64,000 bases of DNA from a virus (IMGVR_UViG_3300045988_164842:1-64000); one strand, 5' to 3'; positions 1,425 through 52,611 are shown, numbered from the stretch's first letter. Made by a program: numbers and translations. Notes: generated by a model not told the origin, from the sequence alone.

Positions 1425-2342
1425 ATGGAAAGCAAGTATAAGGTAATGGCGATAGAGAAAGCTGTAGTAAAAAGATTTCCGGAAGCAAGGAAACCACACT
1501 CTGTGGATTATGATGAAGCAAAAGATTTCATGTTTGAGTTCAAAGCTGATGGTGAAGCTTATACGTCTGCGGTAGTTCCTTACATATGTGATTGGAGAGA
1601 ATTCCGTCAGATTTACAACTTTGACCCAGACCTTGAAAATGAACTGGTTTCAAATTTTCAGAAAGACTTTGAATATCCTGTCGAATTTCTTTTCGGTCTA
1701 CCGTGCAATGTTTTTGTTCTGAAGACAAAAGAGAGTGAATTTATTATCAGAAGCGTTCCTGAGAAAAGACACTTTGCAATATTTGACTTACAGGCTCAAG
1801 CTGAATTTCTTATGGACGTAGAACAAGAAATGAAAACATTTTCTTATCGTAGTCTTGTAAAATCTGAAGGTGTTTCAAAGGAAACGTGGGATGGCTGTGG
1901 CGGTAACACTGACGGTGTGATTTTGAACTTCTTGTTGTTAAGCAAGGTCAAAAGAAATGCGTGCCGTACTGTATTTCCACTCGTAGTTTATCTTTCATAT
2001 GTAAACGCTGATATCAAGCCATATCAGCCCACTGCAAAACGTAAAGCTCCTGTAGGTGCAATATCGCAGATGATACAGGAAAACGCTGTCGGTTTACGTA
2101 TAGGCTCTGTTCTTCGTAAAACAAATCAGATAATAAAAGAGATTAACGAAGATGTTGAAGCGGAGAAACAATCGGGCGAAAAGAAACCACGTAAGAAAAT
2201 GATTGCCCATATCAGACGTGGACACCCACACCGTTATTGGTGCAATGACGAAGACGGTTCAAAGAAACTTGTGGTGCGTTGGGTTGAAACGACTGTGGTT
2301 AATGGCGACATAGAAACCGCAACAATACATGAAGTAAAGTGA
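1425..2342 (+). CDS. hypothetical protein; paralog of 34824..35867 (shared C-terminal basic motif)
   Basis: GAGGTGATAAT RBS. C-terminus HIRRGHPHRYWCNDEDGSKKLVVRWVETTVVNG aligns with MRKAHFHHYWVNDNIAGKKKLILKWLAPILVNG of 34824..35867. LVVYLSYVNADI also aligns with LVLYVSSVNAEI. Confidence 0.75.
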   Translation: MESKYKVMAIEKAVVKRFPEARKPHSVDYDEAKDFMFEFKADGEAYTSAVVPYICDWREFRQIYNFDPDLENELVSNFQKDFEYPVEFLFGLPCNVFVLKTKESEFIIRSVPEKRHFAIFDLQAQAEFLMDVEQEMKTFSYRSLVKSEGVSKETWDGCGGNTDGVILNFLLLSKVKRNACRTVFPLVVYLSYVNADIKPYQPTAKRKAPVGAISQMIQENAVGLRIGSVLRKTNQIIKEINEDVEAEKQSGEKKPRKKMIAHIRRGHPHRYWCNDEDGSKKLVVRWVETTVVNGDIETATIHEVK

Positions 2343-4713: not shown

Positions 4714-4851
4714 AATAACTGTAATCAGTGTTTCCTGTTCATCATGAGAATTGCTTTAAAAATCATGAGCAGAAAAGATAAAGAGAAACTCTATAGAAAA
4801 TTCTTTTCTTGATTAAAGACGGTATCTTGAAAATTGAAAAGGAGAGATAAT

Positions 4852-10750: not shown

Positions 10751-11305
10751 ATGAACAAACATAAAAACTCCACAAACATCGGAAAGCACAACAAAGGTTC
10801 TGCAAACATAGGCTCAGACAACAAGGGAGTAGGCAACATAGGAAATATAAATATAGGCAGAGACAATATAGGTGCATTAAGCATTGGACTTTTAAATGTA
10901 GGTCTTTATAATCACGGCAAGATAAACGTTGGTTCTGGGAATTTTGGTATAGGCAATGTAGGCAGAAACAATATAGGCTTTTTTAACATCGGTATACAAA
11001 ATTTTGGTGTATTTAATACTAATGGGTTTCAGTTCGATGGCATAGATATAACTTCCGATAAAGAAATCAAAAACTTAAACAAGAAAATATTCACATTCAA
11101 TAAGCCAACTGACTGGACTTTTGAAAAGCTTATGGCTTCAATAGACTTTGATATGCTTTTCAACAAAATAGACAGTGGATATTCGGCAGTTAGTAAAAAG
11201 ACATTTAATGTTTTTAAATGCATTCCTAATTTTGATGAAGCTCTTTTGCACAAAATCTTGGCGGTGTGTGGTTATTATGATGATGATGGAACATTTTATT
11301 GGTGA
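10751..11305 (+). CDS. pentapeptide-repeat protein
   Basis: About 18 consecutive pentapeptides (NIGKH NKGSA NIGSD NKGVG NIGNI NIGRD NIGAL ... NFGVF). The C-terminal domain (FNKPTDWTFEKLMAS ... IPNFDEALLHKI) is shared with 36217..37017. Confidence 0.85.
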   Translation: MNKHKNSTNIGKHNKGSANIGSDNKGVGNIGNINIGRDNIGALSIGLLNVGLYNHGKINVGSGNFGIGNVGRNNIGFFNIGIQNFGVFNTNGFQFDGIDITSDKEIKNLNKKIFTFNKPTDWTFEKLMASIDFDMLFNKIDSGYSAVSKKTFNVFKCIPNFDEALLHKILAVCGYYDDDGTFYW

Positions 11306-24164: not shown

Positions 24165-24165
24165 A

Positions 24166-25215
24166 TTATCTTTCCTTTCCCATAACGCTTACATACTTTA
24201 CAAATTCTGATTTCAAAACATACTGCTGTTGTTCGAGAAAGTTAATAACTTTGCTTGCATTAACCTGAAACCATTCACCGAAAACCCTGCATTCATTAAA
24301 GTGTTTATGTACCATGTTTTCAATGTCAAAAGCGTTACTGCACACGATTGACTTATATACAAGGTCAAGTTTTGTACCTGCACCAGTTTCAAGAACGTGA
24401 AGTCTTTTTTCAACATTGTTTGAAACACCGACTTTAACTCTGTCGTTTTCAGGATTTCTAATGACATAGACAAACTGTCTGCTTCTGCTGTCCTGTGGTA
24501 ACACGCTTTCAACCACTCTTGCCTTAAACATATCCATGATGGCTTGCTTCATTTTTGCAAAACTGATAATAAACCTCGCTCTGTATTCTGTAGAGTATTT
24601 AAGCATTAACTGCATAGTAGCCATTTCGCCAAGGTCATATTCTTTGTAAGTCTGCCCGTTGCTTGCGAGGTAATCAACTTCCTTGAAATCGTTAATGATA
24701 AGCTGAATGTCACTGTCCAGATTTGGACAGTGGATTTTCTGAAGCTTGTCAAGTTCATCACGAATATCTCTAAGAATATGCCTATGGTCTTTACCTGTAA
24801 CTTCCGCAATTTTTCTTGATGTTGTTATCGGAATACCGTTTTTACTGAACACAAGCCCAGCTATATTGCCTTTGAATGTGATGGTTTCAAGCTTTGTTGT
24901 CATCTTACGGATTGACGGGAGAACTTCAGAAGTAACCCAACGCTTGAACTTTTTTGCATTGGACATCTTGCTTGAGAGGATTAAACTGTAAAGACCAGAC
25001 TCGTTGATTAATATCGCTTCTCGATTTTGACCTGACAGAACGATTCGTTCTGTCAGCTTATCTTCATCATCAACATGGTCTCTTATTGCCTTTGCTGTGT
25101 TTGTGTATTCAAGAATATCTGCAATATCTTTTCCGACAAACCACGGCTCTCCGTTGATTTCCATTGTTCTGATTGTTCCAAATTCCGCTTTTTCAAAAAT
25201 TCTGATTTCGTTCAT
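24166..25215 (-). CDS. BRO-N + Rha-like + T5orf172 (GIY-YIG-related) fusion protein
   Basis: Start MNEIRIFEKAEFGTIRTMEINGEPWFVGKDIA. Middle GIPITTSRKIAEVTGKDHRHILRDIR. C-terminal FVYVIRNPENDRVKVGVSNNVEKRLHVLETG...FGEWFQV. Confidence 0.8.
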   Translation of the reverse strand: MNEIRIFEKAEFGTIRTMEINGEPWFVGKDIADILEYTNTAKAIRDHVDDEDKLTERIVLSGQNREAILINESGLYSLILSSKMSNAKKFKRWVTSEVLPSIRKMTTKLETITFKGNIAGLVFSKNGIPITTSRKIAEVTGKDHRHILRDIRDELDKLQKIHCPNLDSDIQLIINDFKEVDYLASNGQTYKEYDLGEMATMQLMLKYSTEYRARFIISFAKMKQAIMDMFKARVVESVLPQDSRSRQFVYVIRNPENDRVKVGVSNNVEKRLHVLETGAGTKLDLVYKSIVCSNAFDIENMVHKHFNECRVFGEWFQVNASKVINFLEQQQYVLKSEFVKYVSVMGKER

Positions 25216-25231
25216 GTGTTGTCCCCTTTCA

Positions 25232-25435
25232 TTAACCGCCGATAAGTTCAAGTTCTTCAAGCCCTTTGTCATAGTAAGTATCTGCATAACCAACAGGCAT
25301 AGGTTCTGTGATAAAGTTTTCATATTCATCTTTGTAAATATCCTGCATATGTATTTTTGAGATTTTGCCCGACACCCAAAGACCAAAGATATATCCCATA
25401 AGATTTTGCCACTGAGTAAATGCTTTATTTTTCAT
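25232..25435 (-). CDS. hypothetical protein (67 aa)
   Basis: Tightly packed between the dUTPase and a BRO gene; no motif. Confidence 0.5.
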   Translation of the reverse strand: MKNKAFTQWQNLMGYIFGLWVSGKISKIHMQDIYKDEYENFITEPMPVGYADTYYDKGLEELELIGG

Positions 25436-29690: not shown

Positions 29691-30467
29691 TTAAGCAGTT
29701 GCTTCATGTTCCATCAATGGAAGTATTCCGTCATTTTTCAGCATTTTGTAAATAAACAAACGCCCTTTTTGTGACCAGCAAAGAAATTCTCTAACATGAG
29801 GAACTCCACTAGTGTCAGTAACAAGATTTGTCTTGGTGCTTGCATAACCTTTATCAGAATACTTCTGGTATAAGAGCCAGATGTTTCCCTGACGGTACTG
29901 GATTTTCTTTTCACGAAGATAACGGTTAAGCCATATTGCTGACTTGCCGTAATCTTTTGCGATAACTGAAATCGGTACGAGGTCTTTGCAGTTAAGAACA
30001 AGGTCGTAGTAGCTTGCTTTCGGTTTCATGACTTCAATTTCTGCTGAAAGTTCTTTGTTTTTATTCTGTTCTGACTGGAGTGTTTGAAGCAGAGTGATGA
30101 GGTTCTCCGGTGTGCTGAGTGCCTGAGTAAGTGCCTGAGGTGTCATGTATGCACCGTGTTTACGAATTGACGGAATTACTTCGGAGGTAATCCATTTTCT
30201 GAATGGTTTAGCTTGTGGCTTATCAGAACGAAGGATAACAGCGTAAAGCCCTGACTCGTTGATTACCGTCATCTCTCTCTTCTGTCTACCTGATGTCAAT
30301 TTGACTGACATCAGCTCGTCTTTATCCAATCTGCTGGCAACCATTCTTGAATTGCCTATTTCAAGCACTTTACAGACATCAGCCAGAACCCACCATGGCT
30401 CATTGTTAATTTCCGTCACTCTGATTTTGCCGAAGGTTTCATTTTCAAAAATTCTGATTTCGTTCAT
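29691..30467 (-). CDS. BRO-N / KilAC antirepressor-like protein
   Basis: Start MNEIRIFENETFGKIRVTEINNEPWW. NESGLYAVILRSDKPQAKPFRKWITSEVIPSIRKHG. C-terminal KPKASYYDLVLNCKDLVPISVIAKDYG. Confidence 0.8.
   Translation of the reverse strand: MNEIRIFENETFGKIRVTEINNEPWWVLADVCKVLEIGNSRMVASRLDKDELMSVKLTSGRQKREMTVINESGLYAVILRSDKPQAKPFRKWITSEVIPSIRKHGAYMTPQALTQALSTPENLITLLQTLQSEQNKNKELSAEIEVMKPKASYYDLVLNCKDLVPISVIAKDYGKSAIWLNRYLREKKIQYRQGNIWLLYQKYSDKGYASTKTNLVTDTSGVPHVREFLCWSQKGRLFIYKMLKNDGILPLMEHEATA
30199..30254. repeat. 56-bp inverted repeat partner (pairs with 5062..5117)
   Basis: Reverse complement matches 5062..5117 at 55/56 positions. Confidence 0.8.
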
Positions 30468-30468
30468 G

Positions 30469-31230
30469 TTAAAAATCCTTTCTATACTTATTGCTTTTGC
30501 GTGTTGATTTTTTTCTGACCTGTACAAGCTTTCCTTTCTTAGGCATATTTTTAGCTGTGTTCGCCTTAATAGACATCTTCATCTTTTCAAAACTGACAAT
30601 GATTTTCGCCCAATACTCTTTAAAATATCCGGGTATTAGCCACATAGCAGCCATTTCGCCGAGTTCGTATTCCGAACACTTTTCATAGTCTTCATTAAGG
30701 TAGTAGCTTTTTCTGAAATCGTTTATTATAATCCGGAGGTCAAGACTATCGCAAGGTTCATTATACAAGTAGTTAATTTCCTCGTCGATAGCACAACAGA
30801 TTTCAAGGTTGCTTTTTCCTACGAGTTTCGCTATTGCTCTTGAAGTAGTTACAGGAATTCCATTTTTATTGAACACAAGATAGTCCACATTATCTTCATA
30901 GGTAAGCATTTCAGTTTCTTCATTGTTTGAGCGGAAGAACGGCAGAATTTCAGTGTCTATCCACTTCCTAAAGTACCCTACTTCAAAACATTGAGCATTC
31001 TTAATAATGGTGTCCACACCATGTTTGTTAATCGCAAATTCGCCTGATGACAAAGTGACTTTATCGACTTCGTCTATCATGTCTTTAGAAGGCGTAACTT
31101 TCATCATGTTAGCGACTTCCTTTTCATTAAACCAAGGTTCTCCATCAATCTTCGCAACTTTGAGTGAGCCGAAAAAGTCATTCCAGAAAACCGAAAAATC
31201 ATTGCTGACAATATTTGATACACTACGCAT
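30469..31230 (-). CDS. degenerate BRO-N + Rha-like protein
   Basis: FGSLKVAKIDGEPWFNEKEVANMM and GIPVTTSRAIAKLVGKSN. Start is placed at MRSVSN (AAAGGAAAG RBS); the alternative upstream ATG at 31293 lacks an RBS. Confidence 0.65.
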   Translation of the reverse strand: MRSVSNIVSNDFSVFWNDFFGSLKVAKIDGEPWFNEKEVANMMKVTPSKDMIDEVDKVTLSSGEFAINKHGVDTIIKNAQCFEVGYFRKWIDTEILPFFRSNNEETEMLTYEDNVDYLVFNKNGIPVTTSRAIAKLVGKSNLEICCAIDEEINYLYNEPCDSLDLRIIINDFRKSYYLNEDYEKCSEYELGEMAAMWLIPGYFKEYWAKIIVSFEKMKMSIKANTAKNMPKKGKLVQVRKKSTRKSNKYRKDF

Positions 31231-31302
31231 AGATTCTTTCCTTTCTTTAATAGTTAGCGGAGTTTTGTTTTCCGCTACTCGAATTATGTCCATCCGCTAT
31301 GA

Positions 31303-32406
31303 TTATTCATTTCTTAAGAATATTGGCATTAACACACCTGTGAAGCTTGGTCTTTCATCTGCCGTAAAAATAATTACATTACGGCAATCTTTGAATGATA
31401 ACGTTACCTTGTTCGTTTTCATGTGCTTAACAAAATCGAGAAGCGAATCTGCAGCCATACCGATTTTGATTTCACCACCCGAGATATCCGCTTCGATTTT
31501 CTTTTCACAAAGACCTTTTCCTGTTTCATAGCTGAACGTCATCACATTGTCCTCAATAGTACAAATAACCGGAACTTTACTTTCTGCTTTGAACAGTTTG
31601 GTGAGGTCAACGTATTCCTTAATATCATCTGATTTCACGGTTGAAATAATTTTAACTTCTGATGGAATCCATGCCTCATAGTTAGGGAAATTTCCTTCTA
31701 TTAACTTTGAAGACACCTTATAGTTATCACCTGTAAAACAAACCAACTCTCCTGCAAGAGATACTTTGCAAACTCCATCACCGAGAACATTCAGTAACTG
31801 CTTGAGTGCATTCGCCGGCACTATAAATCGACTATCAACCGCTTGCTGTACGGTTGTAGTTTCGAGAGCCATTCTGTATTCGCAACAAGAGATGATTGAA
31901 AACGTGTTGTTCTCAACTTCAAAGCATTCACCTGTGAGAATACTCTTCAAAGTATCAACTCTTATAGCAAAAAGAGTTGCTTCAAGCATATCTCTTAATT
32001 TCTTTTCTGAAATTTCAAGAACAGGCTTAAAGTTTTCGTAACACGGTTTCTCAATATCGGATACATCAACTGTTTTCATTCCGCAAGTTGTTTTACCGCC
32101 AGTAATAAGAACGTTACCCGTATCGTCAATTGTCAATTCGATAGTTGGTGATTTCAGCTTCTTGAGTATGCCCGTCAAGAGTTTTGCATCGAGATATACC
32201 ATATCAAATTTTTCCGAGTTAGGTATGGCAATTTGCATATCTGTTCCAATACAGTCGTCAAAAAGGTCTTTGCCAAAAATGTGAAGCATTTTGCCGTCTG
32301 ATTCAATGCCGAGAAAGCCATCACTGTTTTTCGATGGCTTGATTGCTGTCTTTGATACGATTGTTGCGATGTTTGCGAGTTCTTTTCTTTTGATTGTGAT
32401 TTTCAT
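31303..32406 (-). CDS. dnaN: DNA polymerase III beta sliding clamp
   Basis: 367 aa. The N-terminal MKITIKRKELANIATIVSKTA...L.I.G.D pattern is typical of DnaN. Sits in a replication context. Confidence 0.75.
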   Translation of the reverse strand: MKITIKRKELANIATIVSKTAIKPSKNSDGFLGIESDGKMLHIFGKDLFDDCIGTDMQIAIPNSEKFDMVYLDAKLLTGILKKLKSPTIELTIDDTGNVLITGGKTTCGMKTVDVSDIEKPCYENFKPVLEISEKKLRDMLEATLFAIRVDTLKSILTGECFEVENNTFSIISCCEYRMALETTTVQQAVDSRFIVPANALKQLLNVLGDGVCKVSLAGELVCFTGDNYKVSSKLIEGNFPNYEAWIPSEVKIISTVKSDDIKEYVDLTKLFKAESKVPVICTIEDNVMTFSYETGKGLCEKKIEADISGGEIKIGMAADSLLDFVKHMKTNKVTLSFKDCRNVIIFTADERPSFTGVLMPIFLRNE

Positions 32407-32485
32407 GATTTTGATTTCCTTTCAGTTCTTTATATTTATAAAGTATTCGTTTTTAACACAATTACGAGATAGACAAAATGTGAAT

Positions 32486-33394
32486 TTATTTTTTACTTTT
32501 TTGGACATTTGAAAGAGGTGAATTGAACATAGCTTCTTTCTTTTGGTTGTCGCTAATATGCGTATAAATCCTTGTTGTGTTCAGATTTTCATGTCCGAGA
32601 ATTTCACAAAGTGTGAGCAAGTCAACACCACCTTGGTACATCATTGTAGCGGCACTGTGTCTAAGTTTGTGTGTAGAAAGTCCTTTATCTTCAAGTCCTG
32701 CCGCCTTCAATGATTTCTTTACAAGCTCCTGTGTTGCCCTAACACTTATTCTTTCTTTCTTCTGAGAAACAAACAACGCTTCGTTTTCATCTTCCTTTAC
32801 ATAAAGGTATTCTTCCAGAGCTTTTATACAAGCCTTGTTGAGAAAGAGCAGGCGTTCTTTATTTCCTTTGCCGAGAATTTTCATAGTACATTCCGAGAAA
32901 TCGATGTCTGACACGTTGAGATTTACAAGCTCACTTACACGCAAACCACAATTAAGGAACAGTACGAGAATACAGTAATCTCTTTCCGGGTGACGACTAA
33001 AGTCACTGACATGATTAAGAATTTCCGTAGCTTCATCAAGCGTTGCATATTTTGGCAACGCTTTTTTTATCTTTGGTCGTTCAACAAATTCCGCAGGGTT
33101 TTTGTCAATAAGATGAAGCCTTTTCCTTGCGTATTCAAAGAACGATTTGAGAGCGGAAATAGCTCTTGCACGGGTGTTGGTACACACGTTGTTGTCTGCA
33201 AGATGATTAAGGTAATCGTAGATGTTTTCCGGTGTGACTTTCGCTACATCATCAAGAGTAACATTCTCTTTCAGAATGTATGAGAAAAACGATTCAGCTT
33301 CCCTTGTGTATATAAGAATTGTCTGAGGGGAATTTGCTTTGATGACTTTCAGGTATTCAGCGTATTCATTGATAATTTTTTCTTTGTATTCCAT
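32486..33394 (-). CDS. int: tyrosine recombinase / integrase (XerC/D-like)
   Basis: Catalytic region HKLRHSAATMMYQGGVDLLTLCEILGHENLNTTRIYTH, plus an upstream GLRVSEL box. Confidence 0.9.
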   Translation of the reverse strand: MEYKEKIINEYAEYLKVIKANSPQTILIYTREAESFFSYILKENVTLDDVAKVTPENIYDYLNHLADNNVCTNTRARAISALKSFFEYARKRLHLIDKNPAEFVERPKIKKALPKYATLDEATEILNHVSDFSRHPERDYCILVLFLNCGLRVSELVNLNVSDIDFSECTMKILGKGNKERLLFLNKACIKALEEYLYVKEDENEALFVSQKKERISVRATQELVKKSLKAAGLEDKGLSTHKLRHSAATMMYQGGVDLLTLCEILGHENLNTTRIYTHISDNQKKEAMFNSPLSNVQKSKK

Positions 33395-33410
33395 GATTTT
33401 CTCCTTTCGG

Positions 33411-33453
33411 CATAAACAAAAGTGATGTAGAATTTTGGCGTTTCTACATCACT
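33411..33453 (-). terminator. hairpin terminator candidate between the accessory operon and int
   Basis: 12-bp stem AGTGATGTAGAA(33421-33432)/TTCTACATCACT(33442-33453), followed on the minus strand by TTTGTTTAT. Confidence 0.55.
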
Positions 33454-33656
33454 GTTTTACATATTCAGTTATTTTTTACTGTCTGGTTTTGTCATTACAC
33501 CAAATCAAATTTTCACGCAATTAAATTTTTGTTTTGTAACTGCTTTGTAATTTGTTAGATTTTCTGCGTGTGATAGCTACAGATAATTAAGTTCGGATTT
33601 GGAAATAACTTGTTCCTGAGAACGAAAAGATTACAGGTGTAACCGATTTGTAATAA

Positions 33657-34808
33657 TTAAGTTATTTCAAGGTTATTTTCCTTTATAAAGTTTAAAATAC
33701 CGCTTTCAGTGTCTGTTGCATTAAATATAAGTGCTTGCGTAAGTATTTTTGATATTTGTCTTTTTCTTTCTTCAGCTTCTTGTTCTGGGCTTTTATCCCT
33801 AAGAATTTCCTCATCGCTCCTTATGCTGATTAGCATAGAGATGAATCGTGTCAGAACGACGTCTGCTTTTTCAGTTGTATCTAACTTTTCTGTAACTGAA
33901 ACATTTATAAGCCAATCTAAATCACCTTGTAAAACCTTTACACCTAATTTAAATTTCTGCAAAACCTGAAGAAGATATTGTGGAAGTTTTTCAGCGTTAA
34001 TTGACGTTTTGTATTTAGACAAAATCATCACCTTATCTCTTAAATTTATCCACTCTTTAAAAGGCTTCCAGAAAGTCGTGCAAGAAAAAAACACAGGTAC
34101 TTTTATGAGCTTAATTTTTGATTCGTCCATATAAAAATCATACTGAAAAGACATACAAGAAGAAAATAATTGGAGATACGCTTTCCTTACATGTATATTA
34201 TTAGGTATATCGTATTCAATATTTTTCTTTATAGCAAAATTAATTAAGCCAACAAACCACGATATCAATGACTTTGAAGAATTTATTAACTCACTTTTTT
34301 GAAGTTTTTCTGCTATATAAGAAATTTTCTCATAAGATATCTGAGTGAGATGTGTACAGAGAGATTTTGTTTCATCTTCTGTAAGTGAACAAGTGTAAGG
34401 GAAATTTGTTATATCTCCTTTAAGTCCGTCCTTGTATTTTAAGATTAGCAGAGATAATTCATCATCTTTTCCTATAGTCGATACAAAACTATATATTATT
34501 GGATACTTTACTCTTTCTTCTTTTTCAATTTCATTTTTGATATAACTCTCTACGGAGTTTACAAGGGGAACAGTTTTGTTAATCTCGTAAATTAAAGATT
34601 GGTAAGAATCTTCTATGGCTATATTCGTTATGAAGTTCTCTATAGATTTTTTTATGGAAATCAATTTCTTTTTTATATCAGAAACATTCATATTGTCATA
34701 CTTGAAATAAGGGAAAGCAGAGATTCTTTTCAAAATCCAATTCAATGTGTCGATATAGTTTTGAATAGCTTTTTTATATTCTGGGTTTTTAAATTTTATT
34801 TTATCCAC
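33657..34808 (-). CDS. hypothetical protein (383 aa), last gene of the HTH-led accessory operon
   Basis: AT-rich, Lys/Ile/Glu/Ser-rich sequence; predicted helical from composition only. No catalytic motif recognised. Confidence 0.7.
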   Translation of the reverse strand: MDKIKFKNPEYKKAIQNYIDTLNWILKRISAFPYFKYDNMNVSDIKKKLISIKKSIENFITNIAIEDSYQSLIYEINKTVPLVNSVESYIKNEIEKEERVKYPIIYSFVSTIGKDDELSLLILKYKDGLKGDITNFPYTCSLTEDETKSLCTHLTQISYEKISYIAEKLQKSELINSSKSLISWFVGLINFAIKKNIEYDIPNNIHVRKAYLQLFSSCMSFQYDFYMDESKIKLIKVPVFFSCTTFWKPFKEWINLRDKVMILSKYKTSINAEKLPQYLLQVLQKFKLGVKVLQGDLDWLINVSVTEKLDTTEKADVVLTRFISMLISIRSDEEILRDKSPEQEAEERKRQISKILTQALIFNATDTESGILNFIKENNLEIT

Positions 34809-34823
34809 GTTATCACCTCCCTT

Positions 34824-35867
34824 TTATTTCACATATCTTTCTTTTTCTTCGCCTTTATATCCGTTGACCAGTATTGGAGCAAGCCATTTCAATATGAGTT
34901 TTTTCTTCCCTGCGATATTGTCATTTACCCAATAATGATGGAAGTGTGCTTTTCTCATATGTGGTTTTCGGGTTTTGTTCTCTCCATCAACGTCATAAGA
35001 TTGATATTGAATTGCTTTGATTGTTCCTTGTAAATCATATCCTGTTTTTGTTCCAACGTACTTAACGATTTCTTTATCGTATTCCTTTTGATAATCGGGA
35101 ACAGTTTGGGAATAAGGTTTTTCTGTTATTTCAGCATTGACAGATGAGACATATAGAACTAAAGCAATTATATTTTCTATAAAACCAATGTATTCACGTC
35201 TTTTCTTTTCTGCTAATTCAAACGATTGTTCTTCAGAAAAACCGTAAATATCCTTACAAGCTTTATAAAAGTCTTTGACTTCTTCCTGAATGAAAGCGTC
35301 AAACAAAATATTTAAGTAAGAGTTTTCTGTATCTGTAACACTAACATTAACTACGATGGTTTCGTCAATGGTTTTCATTGAAAGATTTCCTAACTCGTAT
35401 TCAAAACACGCCTCTGTCTGATTTGTTTTTATACGAAATTTATAAAACGGGATAGTATCAAGTATTTCTGTTGGAATATTTGTTTCTTTCAATGAAAACC
35501 CTGAGCATATAAAATCAGCTATAGTTTTATCAAAAACAAACACCTGTGGGTACTGCTTTTTAAGTTCATATTCCGCTGAATGATTTTTTCTTATCCCAGC
35601 CTTTATTTCTCGAATGATTTTATAGTCTTCTTCATAATCCTCGAAGTTGTACCAGTAATCATTAGGGTAGAAAAAATTTTTCATAGCTCCGATTTTGTAT
35701 TTTTCGCAAAATGAATAATCATCAAAATGCCCAATATATCGTGCAATTTTAATCGGTTTCTTCCTGTCATCACACAAAATAAGATTGTATCCCGGAATGG
35801 CGTAATAAAAAGCTAAGTCCTCGTCATCAATCTGAACATATTCTCTTGGCTTATATTGAATATACAT
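34824..35867 (-). CDS. hypothetical protein (347 aa); paralog of 1425..2342, with an N-terminal domain shared with 35879..36175
   Basis: C-terminal RKPHMRKAHFHHYWVNDNIAGKKKLILKWLAPILVNG. N-terminal YIQYKPREY...GYNLILCDDRKKPI aligns with YVEWKPCRY...GYDLYLCDNNKKRI. Confidence 0.75.
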   Translation of the reverse strand: MYIQYKPREYVQIDDEDLAFYYAIPGYNLILCDDRKKPIKIARYIGHFDDYSFCEKYKIGAMKNFFYPNDYWYNFEDYEEDYKIIREIKAGIRKNHSAEYELKKQYPQVFVFDKTIADFICSGFSLKETNIPTEILDTIPFYKFRIKTNQTEACFEYELGNLSMKTIDETIVVNVSVTDTENSYLNILFDAFIQEEVKDFYKACKDIYGFSEEQSFELAEKKRREYIGFIENIIALVLYVSSVNAEITEKPYSQTVPDYQKEYDKEIVKYVGTKTGYDLQGTIKAIQYQSYDVDGENKTRKPHMRKAHFHHYWVNDNIAGKKKLILKWLAPILVNGYKGEEKERYVK

Positions 35868-35878
35868 TTTATCACCAC

Positions 35879-36175
35879 TTATTCTTGGATTTTTACCATA
35901 CGCTTATAGATACCTTTGTAGTAAAGTCCATCGCTTAATCCAGCAGAAGAACATAAGACGTCCGATGGAAAAGGGAAGCGAGGACAATCGCCTTGTATGA
36001 ATTTATAGACACCAATTCTTTTCTTATTGTTGTCACATAAGTATAAATCGTAACCAACTTCTAAAAGATTTGCGATATGTTCGTCTATGTATTCTTTTGC
36101 ATCTTGTTCATCCATGTCGTCGCTGCCACGAATTTTTTTGTATCTGCATGGCTTCCATTCTACATAATATGCCAT
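35879..36175 (-). CDS. hypothetical small protein (98 aa) homologous to the N-terminus of 34824..35867
   Basis: Start MAYYVEWKPCRY is preceded by AAAGGACGTGCTAAT. Confidence 0.6.
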   Translation of the reverse strand: MAYYVEWKPCRYKKIRGSDDMDEQDAKEYIDEHIANLLEVGYDLYLCDNNKKRIGVYKFIQGDCPRFPFPSDVLCSSAGLSDGLYYKGIYKRMVKIQE

Positions 36176-36216
36176 ATTAGCACGTCCTTTCTGTTTCATA
36201 TAAAAGCTCAACCTTA

Positions 36217-37017
36217 TCAGTCAACCTTTATCCCAGTTGTTCTGAAAAAGATTTCGCTATCAAAGTTCGGGAGACTTTTAATTTCCTCTTTATCGCATGG
36301 AGAGAGGTTGTTCCATTTGTTTTGTTTATCTTCGGATTCTATAAGAGTAATCATGATTTTTCTTGCTGGTGAAGACATCCAATCTTCATAAGTCCAATCC
36401 GACATTTTATCGAACATACGAATACATTCCTTTTTGTAGGACTTTTCATTGAAACAGCCATAAACGTATGCTCCTGAATTGCAATCACCATAATTATAGT
36501 TACCTGAATTGCAATCACCATAATTATAGTTACCTGAATTGTAGTAACCGTAATTACGAGTACCTGAGTTAAAGCTTCCGCAATTTTCTTCACCTGAATT
36601 GCAATCGCCATAATTATAAACTCCGTCATTATTGCTACCATAGTTATTCCAACCAAGATTATTATTTCCGTAATTGAAGTTACCCTCGTTGTCATTACCG
36701 TAATTATAGTTGCCTGAATTCAAAACTCCCGCATTGTCTTCCCCGGAATTCATTTCAGCAAGAAAATCTTCCATGTGATATACTTTAATCACTCTAAAAT
36801 CTTTAGCAGTGAAAAATTCGTTTTCAAAAGGAGTTCCTTTATCCGACATTTCTATTTCTCCAAGAGCCTCCAATTGAACAATAACACCGAAAGTGTAGGA
36901 ATAATCTAAAAGATTAACGCCTTTTTTCATAAACCTAAGCCCTTCTTTATCATGGATGACATCAGAGAGAGAAAAATTGCGAAATTCATCAGGTGTAAGA
37001 TGTATATATCCTTCCAT
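36217..37017 (-). CDS. pentapeptide-repeat protein
   Basis: About 20 pentapeptides (NSGNY NYGND NEGNF NYGNN NLGWN NYGSN NDGVY NYGDC NSGEE ...). C-terminal FDKMSDWTYEDWMSS...LPNFDSEIFFRTTGI is shared with 10751..11305. Confidence 0.85.
   Translation of the reverse strand: MEGYIHLTPDEFRNFSLSDVIHDKEGLRFMKKGVNLLDYSYTFGVIVQLEALGEIEMSDKGTPFENEFFTAKDFRVIKVYHMEDFLAEMNSGEDNAGVLNSGNYNYGNDNEGNFNYGNNNLGWNNYGSNNDGVYNYGDCNSGEENCGSFNSGTRNYGYYNSGNYNYGDCNSGNYNYGDCNSGAYVYGCFNEKSYKKECIRMFDKMSDWTYEDWMSSPARKIMITLIESEDKQNKWNNLSPCDKEEIKSLPNFDSEIFFRTTGIKVD
36473..36742. repeat. 30-bp periodic coding repeat array (two perfect copies)
   Basis: CCTGAATTGCAATCACCATAATTATAGTTA occurs at 36473-36502 and 36503-36532 (identical), followed by about seven diverged 30-bp units. 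Each unit encodes two pentapeptides. Confidence 0.85.
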
Positions 37018-37042
37018 TTTAATATTCCTTTCGTGTATAAAG

Positions 37043-37285
37043 TTATTTTGTATACCCTAAAAGCCACATTTCTGACTTGTCCAGTGCTACAGCCAGTAAT
37101 GTGAGCTTTTCTTTTTTAGGGCAACAGTAAGCGTGCCTATATCGTGATATATCAGATGTTGTTATCTTAGCTTCTACTCCTATTTCTTTAGCTACAACGT
37201 CACAAGCTTTCCTTAATTCCTGTGGAGTAATGCCTTTTTCGGAAATAGCTTGTTCTATTCGGAGTGCAAATACTTGTTTCTTCAT
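37043..37285 (-). CDS. small HTH regulator (80 aa), first gene of the accessory operon
   Basis: Start MKKQVFALRIEQAISEKGITPQELRKACDV follows GAGGTGATAACG. XRE-like helix-turn-helix. Confidence 0.65.
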   Translation of the reverse strand: MKKQVFALRIEQAISEKGITPQELRKACDVVAKEIGVEAKITTSDISRYRHAYCCPKKEKLTLLAVALDKSEMWLLGYTK

Positions 37286-37305
37286 CGTTATCACCTCAAA
37301 TAGTA

Positions 37306-37319
37306 TTTCAATCTTGAAA
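37306..37319. promoter_or_regulatory. palindromic operator candidate upstream of the HTH gene
   Basis: TTTCAATCTTGAAA is a 6+2+6 perfect palindrome. It lies between a TGaTATACT extended -10-like element (minus strand) and the RBS. Confidence 0.45.
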
Positions 37320-37353
37320 CCCTATTTTAGTATATCACAATACAGTTTTTTCG

Positions 37354-37494
37354 TCAAGGTTTTTTGTTATTCCATTCATCAAGTTTTCTGAAAAGCTCAT
37401 CAACTCTCTTTTTGTTTTTTAAGAAAAAGAACCAGCCGTCAATGTACTCAGTTACTATTTGAATAACAAGTAAAACAACTGCCAAGAATGCCAT
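37354..37494 (-). CDS. 46-aa membrane micro-protein
   Basis: AAAGGAGGTGAAAAAT RBS. Hand translation: MAFLAVVLLVIQIVTEYIDGWFFFLKNKKRVDELFRKLDEWNNKKP. Below the ORF-track cutoff. Confidence 0.5.
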   Translation of the reverse strand: MAFLAVVLLVIQIVTEYIDGWFFFLKNKKRVDELFRKLDEWNNKKP

Positions 37495-37520
37495 ATTTTT
37501 CACCTCCTTTCTTTTAGGAA

Positions 37521-37545
37521 GCCCCGTGTAGCCGATAGGTCAGCG
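37521..37545 (-). promoter_or_regulatory. conserved leader motif, copy C
   Basis: Minus strand reads GCTGACCTATCGGCTACACGGGGC, about 25 nt upstream of the ATG at 37494. Confidence 0.6.
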
Positions 37546-37550
37546 CAACA

Positions 37551-38981
37551 TCATATGGCTTTATCCGTTCTTAAACGCACAAACATCCTGTCAAATTCTG
37601 CGTTAATTTTTTTACGTTCTTCTCCCTCTGGTTTCACAGTAAATTCCGCATGACCGCAAAGATAATCAGATTGCATTCCGATATCCTCAAGCCTATCCTT
37701 GACATAGCAAGCAAACGCTCTTGCGAGCATTTCTTCATCAGAAGCCCAGTAACCATGTGCTTCCTTGCTGTAACTTCTATCAGCTTCTTGCGATTTTTTG
37801 AAGTAGTTTGACACATTGCGACCTTTATCATGTTTCATAGTATCGGTAACGTCATGTAGGTACTTTTTTATTCCTTTTACTTTCAGGTAGCGAGAGAGAG
37901 CATGAAACCATTCGTGAGCAAGAGAACCTGCACCTTTCATCTTTGTCAGGCTTATAACGTTTCTCTCAGGTTCGTAATGAGCAACTGAACCTGCACGTCC
38001 TCTTGAACCGTAAGCAATTGCTAACTGACCTCCAAGAGAAATCTGTTCAGGTGCGAAACCGATTGCGATAGCTAAATCTCTTAACGCGTCATATGACATA
38101 TCAAGATTTGCTTGCCTGTCTTGCTGAGTTTGCCAGTTGCCGAACTCACCGCCACGGAATTTAAACGTCTGCAATATTTCATCTGTAGTAACAGGTACGC
38201 CGTTTCTGTAGTTTATGCCTGTTCTGGTAATGTGTACTAACTGTGGTGGTACAGCTTTCTTTTTGCGAGGTTTCTTTTCAGCAACAGGCTTTTCAGTGTT
38301 CTTGACTGTTCGTAAGATGATTTCTTTTGCTGTTTCTTCGCTTTCTACGCCACAACAAATAGCCTTGCGAGTAGGTCTACTGATGATTACATAGCCGTAT
38401 CCTGTAAAAGCTTCTTTATCGAAAAGAGGTTTGTAAAAAGAAGCACCGTATATATCTTTAACCTTAACATACCCTTCCTCGATAGAGCAGTCAGAGCCTT
38501 TAACTATTCGATAATCCGCAAGTATTTTTTCATCTTCCGTGTAAAGGAATTTCTTTTCTTTGATGAAAACCTTTACAGCATGAAGGTCTGTTTCCACTGC
38601 CGATTCCACTTTGGAGAAATCATAGTGAAACCAACACTCTGTATACTGTGCCAAGTAAGTCGAAAGTTTTCCGAAATCTTCAAACTTTCGAACTTCATCT
38701 GTTGTCTTCTTAATAAAAACGGTTATGTCGTAGTATGTTTGCGGAGTTACGAAGGTTGGTCTTGTAGGGATTGCATCTCTTATCATTTTTATCTTCGCTA
38801 CAATCTCAATCGGAAGCCCATTGTCTTTCATTTTCTGATAATTCGGTTTCTTCCAGATATTATCCCTTATCACCAATTGCCTCTGTTCATCTGCTGTCCA
38901 ATCGCCTATATCTGCTGTTCCTTTTGAGAGCAAATCCTTTCTTGCTCCACCGATTTTCTGCCCAAAGTCTTTGATATCCAT
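37551..38981 (-). CDS. polyvalent-protein-like zincin metallopeptidase domain protein
   Basis: Start MDIKDFGQKIGGARKDL follows AAGGAGGAAAAAATA. HEXXH in SLAHEWFHALSRY, plus downstream GYWASDEEMLARAFACYV. Confidence 0.55.
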   Translation of the reverse strand: MDIKDFGQKIGGARKDLLSKGTADIGDWTADEQRQLVIRDNIWKKPNYQKMKDNGLPIEIVAKIKMIRDAIPTRPTFVTPQTYYDITVFIKKTTDEVRKFEDFGKLSTYLAQYTECWFHYDFSKVESAVETDLHAVKVFIKEKKFLYTEDEKILADYRIVKGSDCSIEEGYVKVKDIYGASFYKPLFDKEAFTGYGYVIISRPTRKAICCGVESEETAKEIILRTVKNTEKPVAEKKPRKKKAVPPQLVHITRTGINYRNGVPVTTDEILQTFKFRGGEFGNWQTQQDRQANLDMSYDALRDLAIAIGFAPEQISLGGQLAIAYGSRGRAGSVAHYEPERNVISLTKMKGAGSLAHEWFHALSRYLKVKGIKKYLHDVTDTMKHDKGRNVSNYFKKSQEADRSYSKEAHGYWASDEEMLARAFACYVKDRLEDIGMQSDYLCGHAEFTVKPEGEERKKINAEFDRMFVRLRTDKAI

Positions 38982-38994
38982 TATTTTTTCCTCC

Positions 38995-39981
38995 TTATTT
39001 CTTCTTAATAGTTGTGCTGTGTTCCTCGAATACCACACAGTCACCTTTCTTCATATACCAACATGAGCCGTTGTTCGCCATAGCACAAGCTGAACACGAA
39101 CCGGGACAGCGAAACGCTTTTGCAGGTATCATCGTCTGTTTGTTCTTAAATTCAATCCACGCTGTCGGCAAGTTGTGTGGATTGTCGCAAAGCCAATCAC
39201 CCCAGTTTGAAAAGAGGATAATAAGATTTGCAGGTTTCCTGTGATTTTCAAGCCAGTTGTTCACCAACTCATACTTCTTCGTAAAGCAAAGGAAGCGTGT
39301 TCCTTTTATCTTGCGAGCTACCTTTGCCATGCCGTCAAGGTAATCCATATCCGGAATATCGCCTGTGCTGTGCCATCTGAAAAAGTTGTAGGTGACAAGT
39401 CCGCTGTTTATCTGAGCTACAATGCTGTCAAAGTAGAATTGTGGATTTGCATAATAAGCTTTCAGATTTATCACTCTGTCCACCCTACGGTTTAGGTAGA
39501 CATAGTGACTACGACAAGCGTAGCATTCGTTCATGCAAGGAGCGTCATGCCTGCAAGTAGTTATAGGAGGCAAGTCAAGGGTTGGTATCACTCCGAACTT
39601 ACTGTTACTTACCGAAAGTTTTGGAGCTTCCATAAATAAACTATTAGCCGGAAAATTAACCTGAACGCTTTCACTAAAAGAACTCGCTGATACTTTTATG
39701 ATTGTTTCAGGTAAATCAACTTCTTCTACCGCCGTGTTCATAAAAGCCTCCGCTCCTATAATTTCCGCCCCTAAGAGTGTGACTTTCTTGAGGTTCGTGC
39801 AATCCTTGAATACTTCTGCTTCGATTATGCGAGTATTCAAAGGGATTACAACCTCCTCGATGTCTGTGTTCCCTGCAAATGCTCCACGCCTTATGACAAA
39901 CGTGGATTTCGGAATTTCCACAATTTCTTCGTTTCCTGTGTACGCCGTGAGGGTTCTGCCCTCGATTATAAAGTCTTTCAT
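38995..39981 (-). CDS. LRR (BspA/LRR_5-type) + GP88-like Cys-rich domain fusion
   Basis: N-terminal repeats (VVIPLNTRIIEAEVFKDCTNLKKVTLLGAEIIGAEAF). Then TCRHDAPCMNECYACRSHYVY (includes CX3CX2C spacing), FRWHSTGDI and the C-terminal CPGSCSACAMANNGSCW. Confidence 0.6.
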   Translation of the reverse strand: MKDFIIEGRTLTAYTGNEEIVEIPKSTFVIRRGAFAGNTDIEEVVIPLNTRIIEAEVFKDCTNLKKVTLLGAEIIGAEAFMNTAVEEVDLPETIIKVSASSFSESVQVNFPANSLFMEAPKLSVSNSKFGVIPTLDLPPITTCRHDAPCMNECYACRSHYVYLNRRVDRVINLKAYYANPQFYFDSIVAQINSGLVTYNFFRWHSTGDIPDMDYLDGMAKVARKIKGTRFLCFTKKYELVNNWLENHRKPANLIILFSNWGDWLCDNPHNLPTAWIEFKNKQTMIPAKAFRCPGSCSACAMANNGSCWYMKKGDCVVFEEHSTTIKKK

Positions 39982-39998
39982 TTTTTTATTTATCCTTT

Positions 39999-40517
39999 CT
40001 ATTTATATCTTCTCAAAGGTGTTAATCCTGCGTTTTCACACATCTGATACACTTCAGTATCGTCCATTATACGAGTAACACGAATTTCGCCTGCAATAAT
40101 CCATGTTCCGTACATATTTGGCGATGTTTTATAGCGATAGTAACCGCCGACCGGAATTTTTCTGAGATATGCATTACGCCTGATTACGACACCACACTTG
40201 TTCATTCCTGTAATATCTGCTTCCTCCTGATAAGAACGCTCGTTGTACTCAACTTCTGCCCATACACAGCAATCTTTCAGTGTTTTTATGCCATTATGCA
40301 CACTGTAGATATGCTGGACGTATGGAAGCTCTTCGTTGATGTGCCAGCCTGGTCTATAAGCAAGTTTCCCGAGCCGAGATTTTACTTTTCCGTCTGGTGT
40401 TCTTTCGCCCTCTTTGGCGGATAACCATACACCAACAGGGATTGTTTCAGTTGCCTCCACATAAAGAGGGTGTAAGTTTCCGTTTTTGTCCTGTCTGAAT
40501 AATTTGTAGCCTTTCAT
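39999..40517 (-). CDS. hypothetical protein (172 aa)
   Basis: GGAGTTATC RBS-like sequence. MKGYKLFRQDKNGNLHPLYV...RPGWHI; no function recognised. Confidence 0.65.
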   Translation of the reverse strand: MKGYKLFRQDKNGNLHPLYVEATETIPVGVWLSAKEGERTPDGKVKSRLGKLAYRPGWHINEELPYVQHIYSVHNGIKTLKDCCVWAEVEYNERSYQEEADITGMNKCGVVIRRNAYLRKIPVGGYYRYKTSPNMYGTWIIAGEIRVTRIMDDTEVYQMCENAGLTPLRRYK

Positions 40518-40545
40518 AGATAACTCCTTTCTGCGATAAAAAGTA

Positions 40546-40615
40546 AGAGCAACACTTTTATCGGCGTTGCTCTTTGTGCATAGAAAAGGACTAACGCTTT
40601 CGACGGCATTAGTCC
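40546..40615 (-). terminator. tandem intrinsic terminators
   Basis: GGACTAA(40588-40594)/TTAGTCC(40609-40615) and AAGAGCAAC(40546-40554)/GTTGCTCTT(40566-40574). Each is followed on the minus strand by a T-rich tract. Confidence 0.65.
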
Positions 40616-40640
40616 CTATTAAGTATTTAATTGTTTTGCC

Positions 40641-52583: not shown

Positions 52584-52611
52584 CTTAGATTTAAGAAAGG
52601 AAGTTCGTGTT

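What the first reader, a model, noticed from the sequence alone, without database searches (positions are those of the whole stretch)
33657..37319. AT-rich, HTH-led five-gene accessory operon next to the integrase: candidate novel conflict system
On the minus strand the order is as follows: a palindromic operator (TTTCAATCTTGAAA); an 80-aa HTH; a 266-aa pentapeptide-repeat protein; a 98-aa protein; a 347-aa protein; a 383-aa protein (helicity inferred from composition only); a hairpin terminator; then int. The 98-aa protein is homologous to the N-terminal domain of the 347-aa protein (Y[VI].[WY]KP..Y ... GY[DN]L.LCD[DN].KK). The C-terminus of the 347-aa protein is shared with the distant gene 1425..2342. 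The block is visibly more AT-rich than its neighbours. No gene carries a motif I can tie to replication, structure or lysis. Its position beside int and its architecture (autoregulator plus effectors) match prophage-encoded defence or anti-defence cassettes.
Basis: partly seen in the sequence, partly recalled or inferred. Interest (0 to 1): 0.7.

Follow-up and report, generated by a model that had tools for sequence, protein, structure and literature searches.

The report
Swappable AcrVA2-family anti-defence cassette in phage
This AT-rich five-gene operon in a temperate gut phage is built around a relative of AcrVA2/FinQ, an anti-CRISPR that destroys its target's mRNA during translation. Near-identical phages carry very different versions of the cassette, as expected for genes in an arms race, so it is a new variant of a known kind and not a brand-new system.

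Summary
Five tightly packed minus-strand genes (33657-37285) sit behind a good sigma-70 promoter and a small inverted repeat. Their payload is the lowest-GC stretch of its length in the window.

The 347-aa gene belongs to the AcrVA2/FinQ family. Evidence: the collection's precomputed Pfam PF26125 label; a PDB profile hit to 7CI1 (E=2.7e-6); Foldseek finding only AcrVA2 (E~1e-7); and an invariant HxRxxH motif. The distant gene 1425-2342 is a second family member.

The 98-aa protein is a stand-alone copy of the 347-aa protein's first ~47 residues (hhalign 92%). The 383-aa helical protein belongs to a tiny family (4 representatives in 1.84 billion). It follows this AcrVA2 subfamily directly in all eight loci fetched.

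A phage with an identical recombinase and 97-99.8% identical flanks carries a different payload. It has no pentapeptide gene, and the AcrVA2-like and partner proteins are 60% and 25% identical. The breakpoints lie at the HTH stop and the partner stop.

Best reading: a fixed HTH/promoter platform drives an exchangeable counter-defence payload. The target is unknown. PADLOC finds nothing. Verdict: a new variant of a known kind.

The parts
37329..37357 (-). Sigma-70-type promoter TTGACG-17-TATACT with an extended -10 TG
   Evidence: Best promoter match in 33200-37700 (10 of 12 positions). Sequence read.
37306..37319 (.). Inverted repeat TTTCAA-GA-TTGAAA, candidate operator covering about +3 to +17 of the predicted transcript
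   Evidence: Exact copy is unique in the window. Its position between the -10 and the RBS is seen. Operator function is inferred, not shown.
37043..37285 (-). 80-aa Cro/CI-type HTH regulator. It is the conserved 'platform' gene and is not part of the exchangeable payload.
   Evidence: PDB phmmer hit to the TP901-1 CI N-terminal domain, E=5e-4, full length. phrog_8 transcriptional regulator 3.8e-5. 100% identical in L015, where the payload differs.
36217..37017 (-). 266-aa pentapeptide-repeat (NxGxx) protein with a C-terminal domain shared with paralog 10751-11305. It is an optional payload gene.
   Evidence: Pfam Pentapeptide_2 5.8e-17. phrog_14105 9.5e-43. E=5e-19 against the 184-aa paralog. 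Absent from allele B in L015.
35879..36175 (-). 98-aa protein, a stand-alone homolog of the N-terminal ~47 residues of the AcrVA2-like protein
   Evidence: BLASTP E=2e-4. hhalign 92%, E=6.8e-7. Homologs sit in the same position in L002, L003 and L015.
34824..35867 (-). 347-aa AcrVA2/FinQ-family protein with a novel beta-rich N-terminal domain and the conserved core and C-terminal HxRxxH motif (H303, R305, H308)
   Evidence: Precomputed PF26125 label. Profile versus PDB 7CI1 E=2.7e-6. Foldseek 7CI1/7CI2 E~1e-7, with the next hit at E=0.13. Invariant motif. phrog_6160 5e-28.
33657..34808 (-). 383-aa mostly alpha-helical partner protein from a tiny, fast-evolving family that always lies directly downstream of this AcrVA2-like subfamily
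   Evidence: 4 representatives among 1.84 billion and 1 cluster among 5.8 billion. Adjacent in L001, L002, L003, L008, L009, L010, L011 and L015. 25-55% identity between alleles. No family or fold match.
33592..33668 (-). About 75-bp conserved element overlapping and following the partner's stop codon (small hairpin plus U-run). It is either a module 3' end/terminator or a candidate attP arm.
   Evidence: Conserved in L015 and L013. Also conserved in L008, where the downstream genes are a P-type ATPase operon instead of the recombinase. Folds at dG -15.1, z=-3.1.
33421..33453 (-). 12-bp-stem hairpin followed by a U-run, immediately upstream of the recombinase RBS
   Evidence: dG -17.1 kcal/mol, z=-3.4.
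32486..33394 (-).
   Evidence: Pfam Phage_integrase 1.9e-43. TIGR XerC 230 bits and XerA/integron-type 223 bits.
1425..2342 (+). Second AcrVA2/FinQ-family gene (305 aa) with a different N-terminus, next to the ImmA/ImmR-type lysogeny switch
   Evidence: E=2e-16 against the 347-aa protein. PDB 7CI1 E=0.027 with HIRRGH aligned. phrog_6160. Split by an IS200/IS605 insertion in relatives L004-L006. Neighbouring genes identified.
10751..11305 (+). Paralogous 184-aa pentapeptide-repeat protein
   Evidence: Pfam Pentapeptide_2 1.8e-19. E=5e-19 against the cassette PRP.

Best explanation
The locus is a counter-defence or inter-element-conflict 'expression platform' in a large temperate phage of Bacillota.

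A conserved promoter, a small inverted repeat and an 80-aa CI-type HTH form the platform. The HTH is inferred to act as an Aca-like autorepressor. The platform drives an exchangeable payload.

The payload's core is a three-gene module:
1. A small protein that is a free copy of the effector's N-terminal domain.
2. An AcrVA2/FinQ-family effector.
3. A fast-evolving helical partner.

In this allele a pentapeptide-repeat protein is added.

By analogy with AcrVA2, the effector's variable N-terminal part is inferred to recognise a specific host or rival-element protein as it emerges from the ribosome. The conserved core with the HxRxxH motif is inferred to trigger loss of that protein's mRNA. The free N-domain copy may bind the same target once it is already made. 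That would match the published logic of pairing AcrVA1 with AcrVA2. The partner is either a second inhibitor or a specificity/regulatory subunit.

Shown here: family membership of the effector; homology of the small protein to its N-terminus; strict linkage of the partner; allele swapping at gene-exact breakpoints.

Inferred: the target, the direction of the conflict (anti-defence versus exclusion), the roles of the small, partner and pentapeptide proteins, and autoregulation.
For: AcrVA2 family membership:
- Precomputed PF26125 on this protein's cluster and its relatives.
- Profile A1 versus PDB AcrVA2 7CI1, E=2.7e-6.
- The AF2 model (residues 100-335 at pLDDT 80-94) finds only AcrVA2 in the PDB (E~1e-7, probability 1.0; next hit E=0.13).
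- The same model finds uncharacterised phage proteins, including Erwinia and Dickeya phages, in BFVD.
- H303/R305/H308 are invariant. They align with AcrVA2's HIRRGH, and H286/R288/H291 are required there for mRNA down-regulation.

The published family picture fits: homologs are widespread on mobile elements lacking Cas12a, and their N-termini diverge.

Arms-race signature:
- L015 has an identical recombinase and HTH, with flanks 97.1% and 99.85% identical. Its payload is replaced (VA2-like 60% aa, partner 25% aa, PRP absent).
- The breakpoints fall directly after the HTH stop and at the partner stop.
- A third allele (L002-type) sits next to a recombinase gene about 93% identical at the nucleotide level in L013.

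The payload is the lowest-GC stretch of the window. The partner is linked to this subfamily in 8 of 8 loci fetched. Other AcrVA2-like genes lack it. Small protein versus N-domain: hhalign 92%. The paralog at 1425-2342 is IS-disrupted in relatives, so this gene type is dispensable.
Against: No target is known and no host could be identified, so 'anti-defence' rests on family analogy.

Only the C-terminal ~70 residues align to AcrVA2 at sequence level. Global TM-scores are modest (0.37-0.43).

The position equivalent to AcrVA2 W79 is not conserved in this subfamily.

The one other studied family member, FinQ, acts for a plasmid against another plasmid. A protective or exclusion role for the lysogen is therefore equally compatible.

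The HTH leads the operon, whereas typical acr-aca operons end with aca (my own knowledge of the field). The inverted repeat is short.

The roles of the partner, small and pentapeptide proteins have no direct evidence. The 383-aa model is of low confidence (pLDDT 65, pTM 0.32).
Confidence: 0.6

Rival explanations
1. Prophage-encoded exclusion (defence for the lysogen). As FinQ on IncI/F-like plasmids blocks F transfer, the AcrVA2-like effector would silence an essential gene of incoming phages or plasmids. The cassette would then be a lysogenic-conversion immunity module rather than an anti-defence module.
For: FinQ is a family member that lowers F-plasmid transfer-gene mRNA. The cassette has its own promoter and a terminator-like hairpin. 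It may lie at a prophage end. The phage has an ImmA/ImmR-type lysogeny switch. Allele diversity is equally expected for defence genes.
Against: There is no PADLOC hit. The cassette is co-oriented with, and embedded in, the early/replication gene block next to a polyvalent-protein-type LPD1 gene, which suits early expression during infection. The only mechanistically dissected family member is an anti-CRISPR.
Confidence: 0.2
2. Effector-immunity (addiction-like) pair. The AcrVA2-like protein would be intrinsically toxic because it destroys mRNA. The downstream, rapidly co-evolving 383-aa protein would be its cognate neutraliser, and the free N-domain a further buffer. The module would stabilise the prophage or phage-plasmid.
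For: A downstream, tightly linked, much faster-evolving partner (25-55% versus 51-66% identity) is the pattern seen for polymorphic toxin/immunity pairs (my own knowledge). Relatives carry a Rep3_N replication gene, hinting at plasmid-like maintenance. Other AcrVA2-like genes have different neighbours.
Against: AcrVA2 itself was highly specific and not reported as toxic: only cas12a was significantly down-regulated. No toxin domain was found (Tox-REase-9 E=0.093, far below the cut-off). The paralog at 1425-2342 has no such partner. A 383-aa immunity protein is unusually large (my own judgement).
Confidence: 0.08
3. No functional unit. The genes would be unrelated morons that accumulated in a recombination hotspot next to the recombinase, and the HTH would regulate something else.
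For: The pentapeptide gene is present in one allele and absent in another. The HTH belongs to the conserved backbone, not to the payload. The inverted repeat is weak evidence for an operator.
Against: The small/AcrVA2-like/partner trio, or at least the pair, is kept together across five divergent alleles and in a different genomic context, L008. The small gene is homologous to the effector's own N-terminus. Gaps of 11-41 nt and a single strong promoter argue for co-transcription.
Confidence: 0.1

Closest known systems
AcrVA2 (Moraxella bovoculi prophage anti-CRISPR; PDB 7CI1/7CI2; Pfam PF26125 AcrVA2-like)
   Same: Same family by the precomputed Pfam label, by PDB profile (E=2.7e-6) and by fold (Foldseek E~1e-7). 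Similar size (347 versus 322-323 aa). The C-terminal HxRxxH motif required for mRNA down-regulation is conserved. Both are encoded on a temperate phage among other accessory genes.
   Different: About 13% identity over the structural alignment. The N-terminal ~95 residues are unrelated: predicted beta-strands plus a low-confidence segment here, six helices in AcrVA2. The W79 equivalent is not conserved. No evidence links it to Cas12a. Here it comes with an N-domain-only paralog and an obligate 383-aa partner, which the papers read do not mention for AcrVA2.
FinQ (fertility inhibition protein of IncI/F-like plasmids)
   Same: Named by Marino et al. as an AcrVA2 homolog with a conserved C-terminal domain and a divergent N-terminus. 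It lowers mRNA of a rival element's genes. This is the precedent for family members with non-CRISPR targets.
   Different: It is plasmid-borne in Enterobacteria. No FinQ sequence was compared here. No partner genes are described in what I read.
acr-aca operons / anti-defence 'inhibitor islands'
   Same: An HTH regulator shares a promoter, carrying an inverted repeat, with one or more inhibitor genes. Gene content varies between related phages.
   Different: The HTH is first rather than last in the operon. It resembles a CI N-terminal domain. Similarity to named Aca families could not be tested.
Pentapeptide-repeat proteins (Pfam Pentapeptide_2; functionally, the Qnr/MfpA/AlbG DNA mimics)
   Same: The 266-aa protein has about 20 NxGxx repeats that match Pentapeptide_2 above the cut-off.
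   Different: The DNA mimics belong to the A(D/N)LXX Pentapeptide family, not Pentapeptide_2 (my own knowledge). No structure or function is known for phrog_14105. A DNA-mimic role here is speculation.

Membership tests
AcrVA2/FinQ family (Pfam PF26125) | Significant match to the family's sequence model | tested here: met
   The collection's precomputed hits label this protein's cluster (P0001, 99% identical) and relatives P0002-4, P0011 and P0013-15 as PF26125. My own profile of the subfamily hits AcrVA2 7CI1 at E=2.7e-6. The local Pfam copy lacks this model: four proteins labelled PF26125 give no hit. The label itself could therefore not be recomputed.
AcrVA2/FinQ family (Pfam PF26125) | Fold of the middle and C-terminal domains as in PDB 7CI1 | tested here: met
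   Foldseek on the AF2 model gives 7CI1_A E=9.5e-8, probability 1.00, 269 aligned columns. The next non-AcrVA2 hit is at E=0.13. TM-scores are only 0.37-0.43, which may reflect the unrelated N-domain and multi-domain geometry.
AcrVA2/FinQ family (Pfam PF26125) | Conserved C-terminal H-x-R-x-x-H (AcrVA2 H286/R288/H291), required for mRNA down-regulation | tested here: met
   PHMRKAH (H303, R305, H308) is invariant in alignment A2. It aligns to AcrVA2 PHIRRGH.
AcrVA2/FinQ family (Pfam PF26125) | Conserved W79 / D89 equivalents (moderate loss of function when mutated) | tested here: inconclusive
   By motif spacing (W and D ten residues apart), I take the invariant Asp D113 in the F-D motif as the D89 equivalent. 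The Trp ten residues upstream is present in the 305-aa paralog and in P0013-15, but it is Lys in the 347-aa subfamily. AcrVA2 itself was not in that alignment.
AcrVA2/FinQ family (Pfam PF26125) | Translation-dependent loss of a specific target mRNA after binding its nascent N-terminal peptide | not testable with these tools
   Needs expression, RNA-seq and co-immunoprecipitation with an HxR mutant, as.
Anti-CRISPR against Cas12a (functional class AcrVA) | Inhibits a type V-A CRISPR-Cas system present in the host | not testable with these tools
   No host was identified. Marino et al. report that most family members occur where Cas12a is absent. I do not file it as an AcrVA.
acr-aca operon | HTH repressor that binds inverted repeats in its own promoter | tested here: inconclusive
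   The HTH is confirmed. One 6+2+6 inverted repeat sits at the predicted transcription start. Binding was not tested, and no Aca HMM library is available.
Known anti-phage defence systems (PADLOC-DB 2.0) | Match of any cassette protein to a defence-system model | tested here: not met
   The four payload proteins give no hits. The HTH gives only weak HTH-region similarity to RmrA (E=0.005-0.05).
Pentapeptide repeat proteins (Pfam PF01469) | Tandem five-residue repeats matching the model above the gathering score | tested here: met
   61.7 bits against a cut-off of 26.4, in three stretches.
Toxin-antitoxin / polymorphic toxin-immunity pairs | Recognisable toxin domain in the effector | tested here: not met
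   The only hit is Tox-REase-9 at E=0.093, 13.4 bits against a cut-off of 27.3. Nothing in NCBIfam.
Tyrosine recombinases (Xer/integrase) | Phage_integrase catalytic domain plus SAM-like N-domain | tested here: met
   PF00589 1.9e-43 and PF02899 2.5e-13. The closest NCBIfam models are XerC, XerD and XerA. Whether it integrates the phage or resolves dimers is untested.

The most novel reading that the evidence does not exclude
The small/AcrVA2-like/partner trio may be a self-contained, modular silencer coupled to translation. In this reading the free N-domain and the hyper-variable helical partner set or gate target specificity, or the partner supplies the still-unknown mRNA-decay activity. Each allele at this hotspot would then be tuned to a different host immune protein. 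Partial read-through of the effector's TAA stop by the phage's own ochre-suppressor tRNA could additionally yield an effector-partner fusion, because the two genes are in frame in three of five alleles.
Probability: 0.15. Interest if true: 0.8.

Novelty: new variant of a known kind. Interest (0 to 1): 0.5.

Why it matters
AcrVA2 is described as the only prokaryotic protein shown to destroy a specific mRNA after recognising the nascent polypeptide. Two things are open: how the decay is triggered, and what the many homologs in Cas12a-free bacteria target.

This locus offers a natural experiment. At least three divergent alleles of an AcrVA2-like module sit in an otherwise near-identical phage backbone. 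Each has a linked N-domain-only protein and a linked partner protein.

Allele swaps and pull-downs with an HxR mutant could reveal new targets. They could also show whether partner proteins take part in the mechanism. The same information would help in building programmable, peptide-tag-directed gene silencing.

If the cassette turns out to be just one more family member with an unknown target, the finding is useful annotation and no more.

Tried and rejected
- blastn of the locus against 50,697 phage records gave only an irrelevant 87-bp hit.
- IMG/VR scans with the AcrVA2-like alignment, DnaN and the LPD1 protein found no relatives.
- GTDB genome scans with the AcrVA2-like alignment and the portal protein found none. 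Host and integration status therefore stay unknown.
- PADLOC, NCBIfam and the local Pfam copy gave nothing for the payload proteins except the pentapeptide repeats. The missing local PF26125 hit is explained: that model is absent from the local copy.
- For the 383-aa protein, the exhaustive HMMER search found 4 representatives, a PDB profile search found nothing credible, and Foldseek on a low-confidence model found no match below E=0.2. I reject any fold assignment for it.
- PDB profile searches with the small-protein family and the N-domain family found nothing.
- Rfam found no RNA family in 33000-38000.
- Similarity of the cassette's 98-aa protein to the other 98-aa ORF (10451-10747): none.
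- TAA recoding: seven same-frame gene pairs are separated only by TAA, against two for TGA and one for TAG. This is roughly what the stop usage of 34:26:5 predicts, so it was not pursued.
- Effector-partner fusion by read-through: in frame in three of five alleles, out of frame in two. This is not distinguishable from chance.
- Site-specific (integron-like) cassette exchange by the adjacent recombinase: considered because the XerA/integron-type model scored just above its cut-off. The integron-integrase model itself is far below its cut-off. Conserved flanks suffice for homologous exchange, so I rejected this as unsupported.

Full report
**1. What is there**

On the minus strand, five ORFs are packed with 11-41 nt gaps (starts checked).

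| Gene | Coordinates | Length |
|---|---|---|
| HTH | 37043-37285 | 80 aa |
| Pentapeptide-repeat protein | 36217-37017 | 266 aa |
| Small protein | 35879-36175 | 98 aa |
| AcrVA2-like | 34824-35867 | 347 aa |
| Partner | 33657-34808 | 383 aa |

- The best sigma-70-like site of the region is TTGACG-17-TATACT with TG (37357..37329).
- It is followed by the inverted repeat TTTCAA-GA-TTGAAA (37306-37319). The exact sequence is unique in the window, but with 6-bp arms it is not compelling on its own.
- A small hairpin with a U-run directly follows the 383-aa stop.
- A 12-bp-stem hairpin with a U-run lies at 33421-33453, just before the recombinase RBS (dG -17.1, z=-3.4).
- The payload 33657-37042 is 32.2% GC against 37.7% for the window. 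It is the lowest stretch of its size.

One correction: 'int' is a Xer-type tyrosine recombinase.

**2. Genomic setting**

The window is part of a large temperate phage of Bacillota.
- It carries an ImmA/ImmR-like switch at 2.7-4.6 kb.
- It encodes its own DNA polymerase, primase-helicase, clamp, NrdD and ThyX.
- Its portal is about 30% identical to those of Brevibacillus phage Sundance and the Lactococcus 949 group.
- An 88-kb metagenomic contig is 100% identical over the 12 kb compared (L014).

The cassette is co-oriented with the early/replication block. It lies just downstream of an LPD1/'polyvalent protein'-type gene carrying an HExxH motif.

**3. The 347-aa gene is an AcrVA2/FinQ-family member**

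- The protein collection labels its cluster and relatives PF26125 'AcrVA2-like'.
- The local Pfam copy does not contain that model: four labelled proteins give no hit. I therefore tested membership independently.
- phmmer and a subfamily profile hit AcrVA2 (PDB 7CI1) at E=0.015 and 2.7e-6.
- An AF2 model that is confident over residues 100-335 finds only AcrVA2 chains in the PDB (E~1e-7, probability 1.0). The next hit is at E=0.13.
- The same model finds uncharacterised phage proteins in BFVD. tblastn finds weak homologs on plasmids, including Moraxella plasmids.
- PHMRKAH (H303/R305/H308) is invariant. It aligns with AcrVA2's H286/R288/H291.

Marino et al. showed that these residues are needed for translation-dependent destruction of cas12a mRNA, but not for binding. 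The same paper reports homologs, including FinQ, on many mobile elements that mostly lack Cas12a. Their C-termini are conserved and their N-termini diverge. The decay mechanism is still unknown.

The distant gene 1425-2342 is a second family member (E=2e-16 to the 347-aa protein; HIRRGH motif). It sits beside the lysogeny switch. In relatives it is split by an IS200/IS605 insertion, so it is dispensable.

**4. The other genes**

- **Small protein.** The 98-aa protein is homologous to the first ~47 residues of the effector (BLASTP 2e-4; hhalign 92%, E=6.8e-7). The AF2 model predicts this region as beta-strands, unlike AcrVA2's helical N-domain.
- **Partner.**
  - The family is tiny: one 98%-identical cluster in 5.8 billion clustered proteins and 4 representatives in 1.84 billion.
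  - It has no family or fold match.
  - In all eight loci fetched it lies directly downstream of this AcrVA2-like subfamily (L001, L002, L003, L008, L009, L010, L011, L015).
  - More distant AcrVA2-like genes have other neighbours.
- **Pentapeptide protein.** It matches Pentapeptide_2 above the cut-off. It has a paralog at 10751-11305 that shares its C-terminal domain.
- **HTH.** It resembles the CI N-terminal domain of phage TP901-1.

**5. The cassette is exchangeable**

L015 encodes the identical recombinase and the identical HTH. Its flanks are 97.1% (window 40636..37043) and 99.85% (33662..31054) identical.

Between those points the payload differs:
- there is no pentapeptide gene;
- the small protein is a 111-aa homolog;
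- the AcrVA2-like protein is 60% identical;
- the partner is 25% identical.

Identity stops right after the HTH stop codon and resumes at the partner's stop.

A third allele (L002 type, 66% and 30% identity) lies next to a recombinase gene about 93% identical at the nucleotide level in L013. Across alleles the effector is 51-66% identical and the partner 25-55%.

It is the usual signature of genes under conflict-driven diversification. It also shows that the HTH and promoter are a fixed platform and the downstream genes are the swappable part.

**6. Mechanism**

- **Shown:** family membership, domain relationships, linkage and allele exchange.
- **Inferred from AcrVA2:** the effector recognises a specific nascent polypeptide through its variable N-terminal part, and triggers loss of that mRNA through the conserved core.
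- **Speculative:** the free N-domain binds the mature target, mirroring the published pairing of AcrVA1 with AcrVA2. The partner is a second inhibitor, a specificity subunit or a neutraliser. The pentapeptide protein is a decoy. The HTH autoregulates through the inverted repeat.

The direction of the conflict is open, either anti-defence or FinQ-like exclusion of rival elements. PADLOC finds no known defence system.

**7. Comparison and novelty**

The core belongs to a described family, so this is not a categorically new system. I found no description of the architecture in the AcrVA2 papers read. The new features are:
- a new N-domain;
- an N-domain-only paralog;
- an obligate fast-evolving partner;
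- an optional pentapeptide gene;
- a fixed HTH platform;
- allele exchange.

I class it as a new variant of a known kind, with interest 0.5.

**8. Limits**

- There is no host and no target.
- Relatives in public data are few and mostly on short contigs.
- The 383-aa model is of low confidence.

Noticed in passing
window 52502-52584 (+): A tRNA with anticodon UUA, i.e. an ochre (UAA) suppressor, found by ARAGORN and confirmed as a tRNA by Rfam at 43.4 bits. A quick test found no clear excess of genes joined through TAA. Two details are suggestive: the AcrVA2-like gene and its partner are in frame across a single TAA, and the L002 small gene has an in-frame TAA where L015 has GAA.
   Followed up: partly
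window 33592-33668 (-); L008:1205-1320: About 75 bp overlapping and following the partner's stop codon are conserved in L008. There the downstream genes are a Bacillota-type heavy-metal P-type ATPase/HMA/ArsR operon instead of the recombinase. This could be a prophage-host junction. That would place attP near window 33590-33600 and the cassette at a prophage end.
   Followed up: partly
L004:10001-13095, L005, L006 (relatives of window 1425-2342): In related phage contigs the paralogous AcrVA2-like gene is split into 175-aa and 176-aa halves by an IS200/IS605 element (Y1 TnpA plus TnpB). The same contigs carry a Rep3_N plasmid-type initiator near the lysogeny switch, which hints at a phage-plasmid lifestyle.
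   Followed up: no
window 37551-39044 (-) and 38995-39981 (-): The genes just upstream of the cassette are a 497-aa protein with an LPD1 domain, a CLCA_X-family region and an HEWFH zincin-like motif (a 'polyvalent protein' module), and a 328-aa LRR_5/GP88 protein. The region may be a wider early counter-defence island.
   Followed up: no
window 10751-11305 (+); L004:18383-19862: This phage group carries several pentapeptide-repeat proteins that share a C-terminal '...DWT.E..M...PNFD...' domain. The function of this family (phrog_14105) is unknown.
   Followed up: partly
window 23424-25386, 29691-31293 (-), 4834-5598 (+): There is an unusually large number of Bro-N/ANT/KilAC antirepressor-like genes, at least five. 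One is fused to a homing-endonuclease-like C-terminus.
   Followed up: no
window 37354-37494 (-): A conserved 46-aa ORF with a hydrophobic N-terminal segment lies between the LPD1 gene and the cassette promoter. It is called in L001, L014 and L015. The cassette's -35 box (37352-37357) overlaps its last codons.
   Followed up: no
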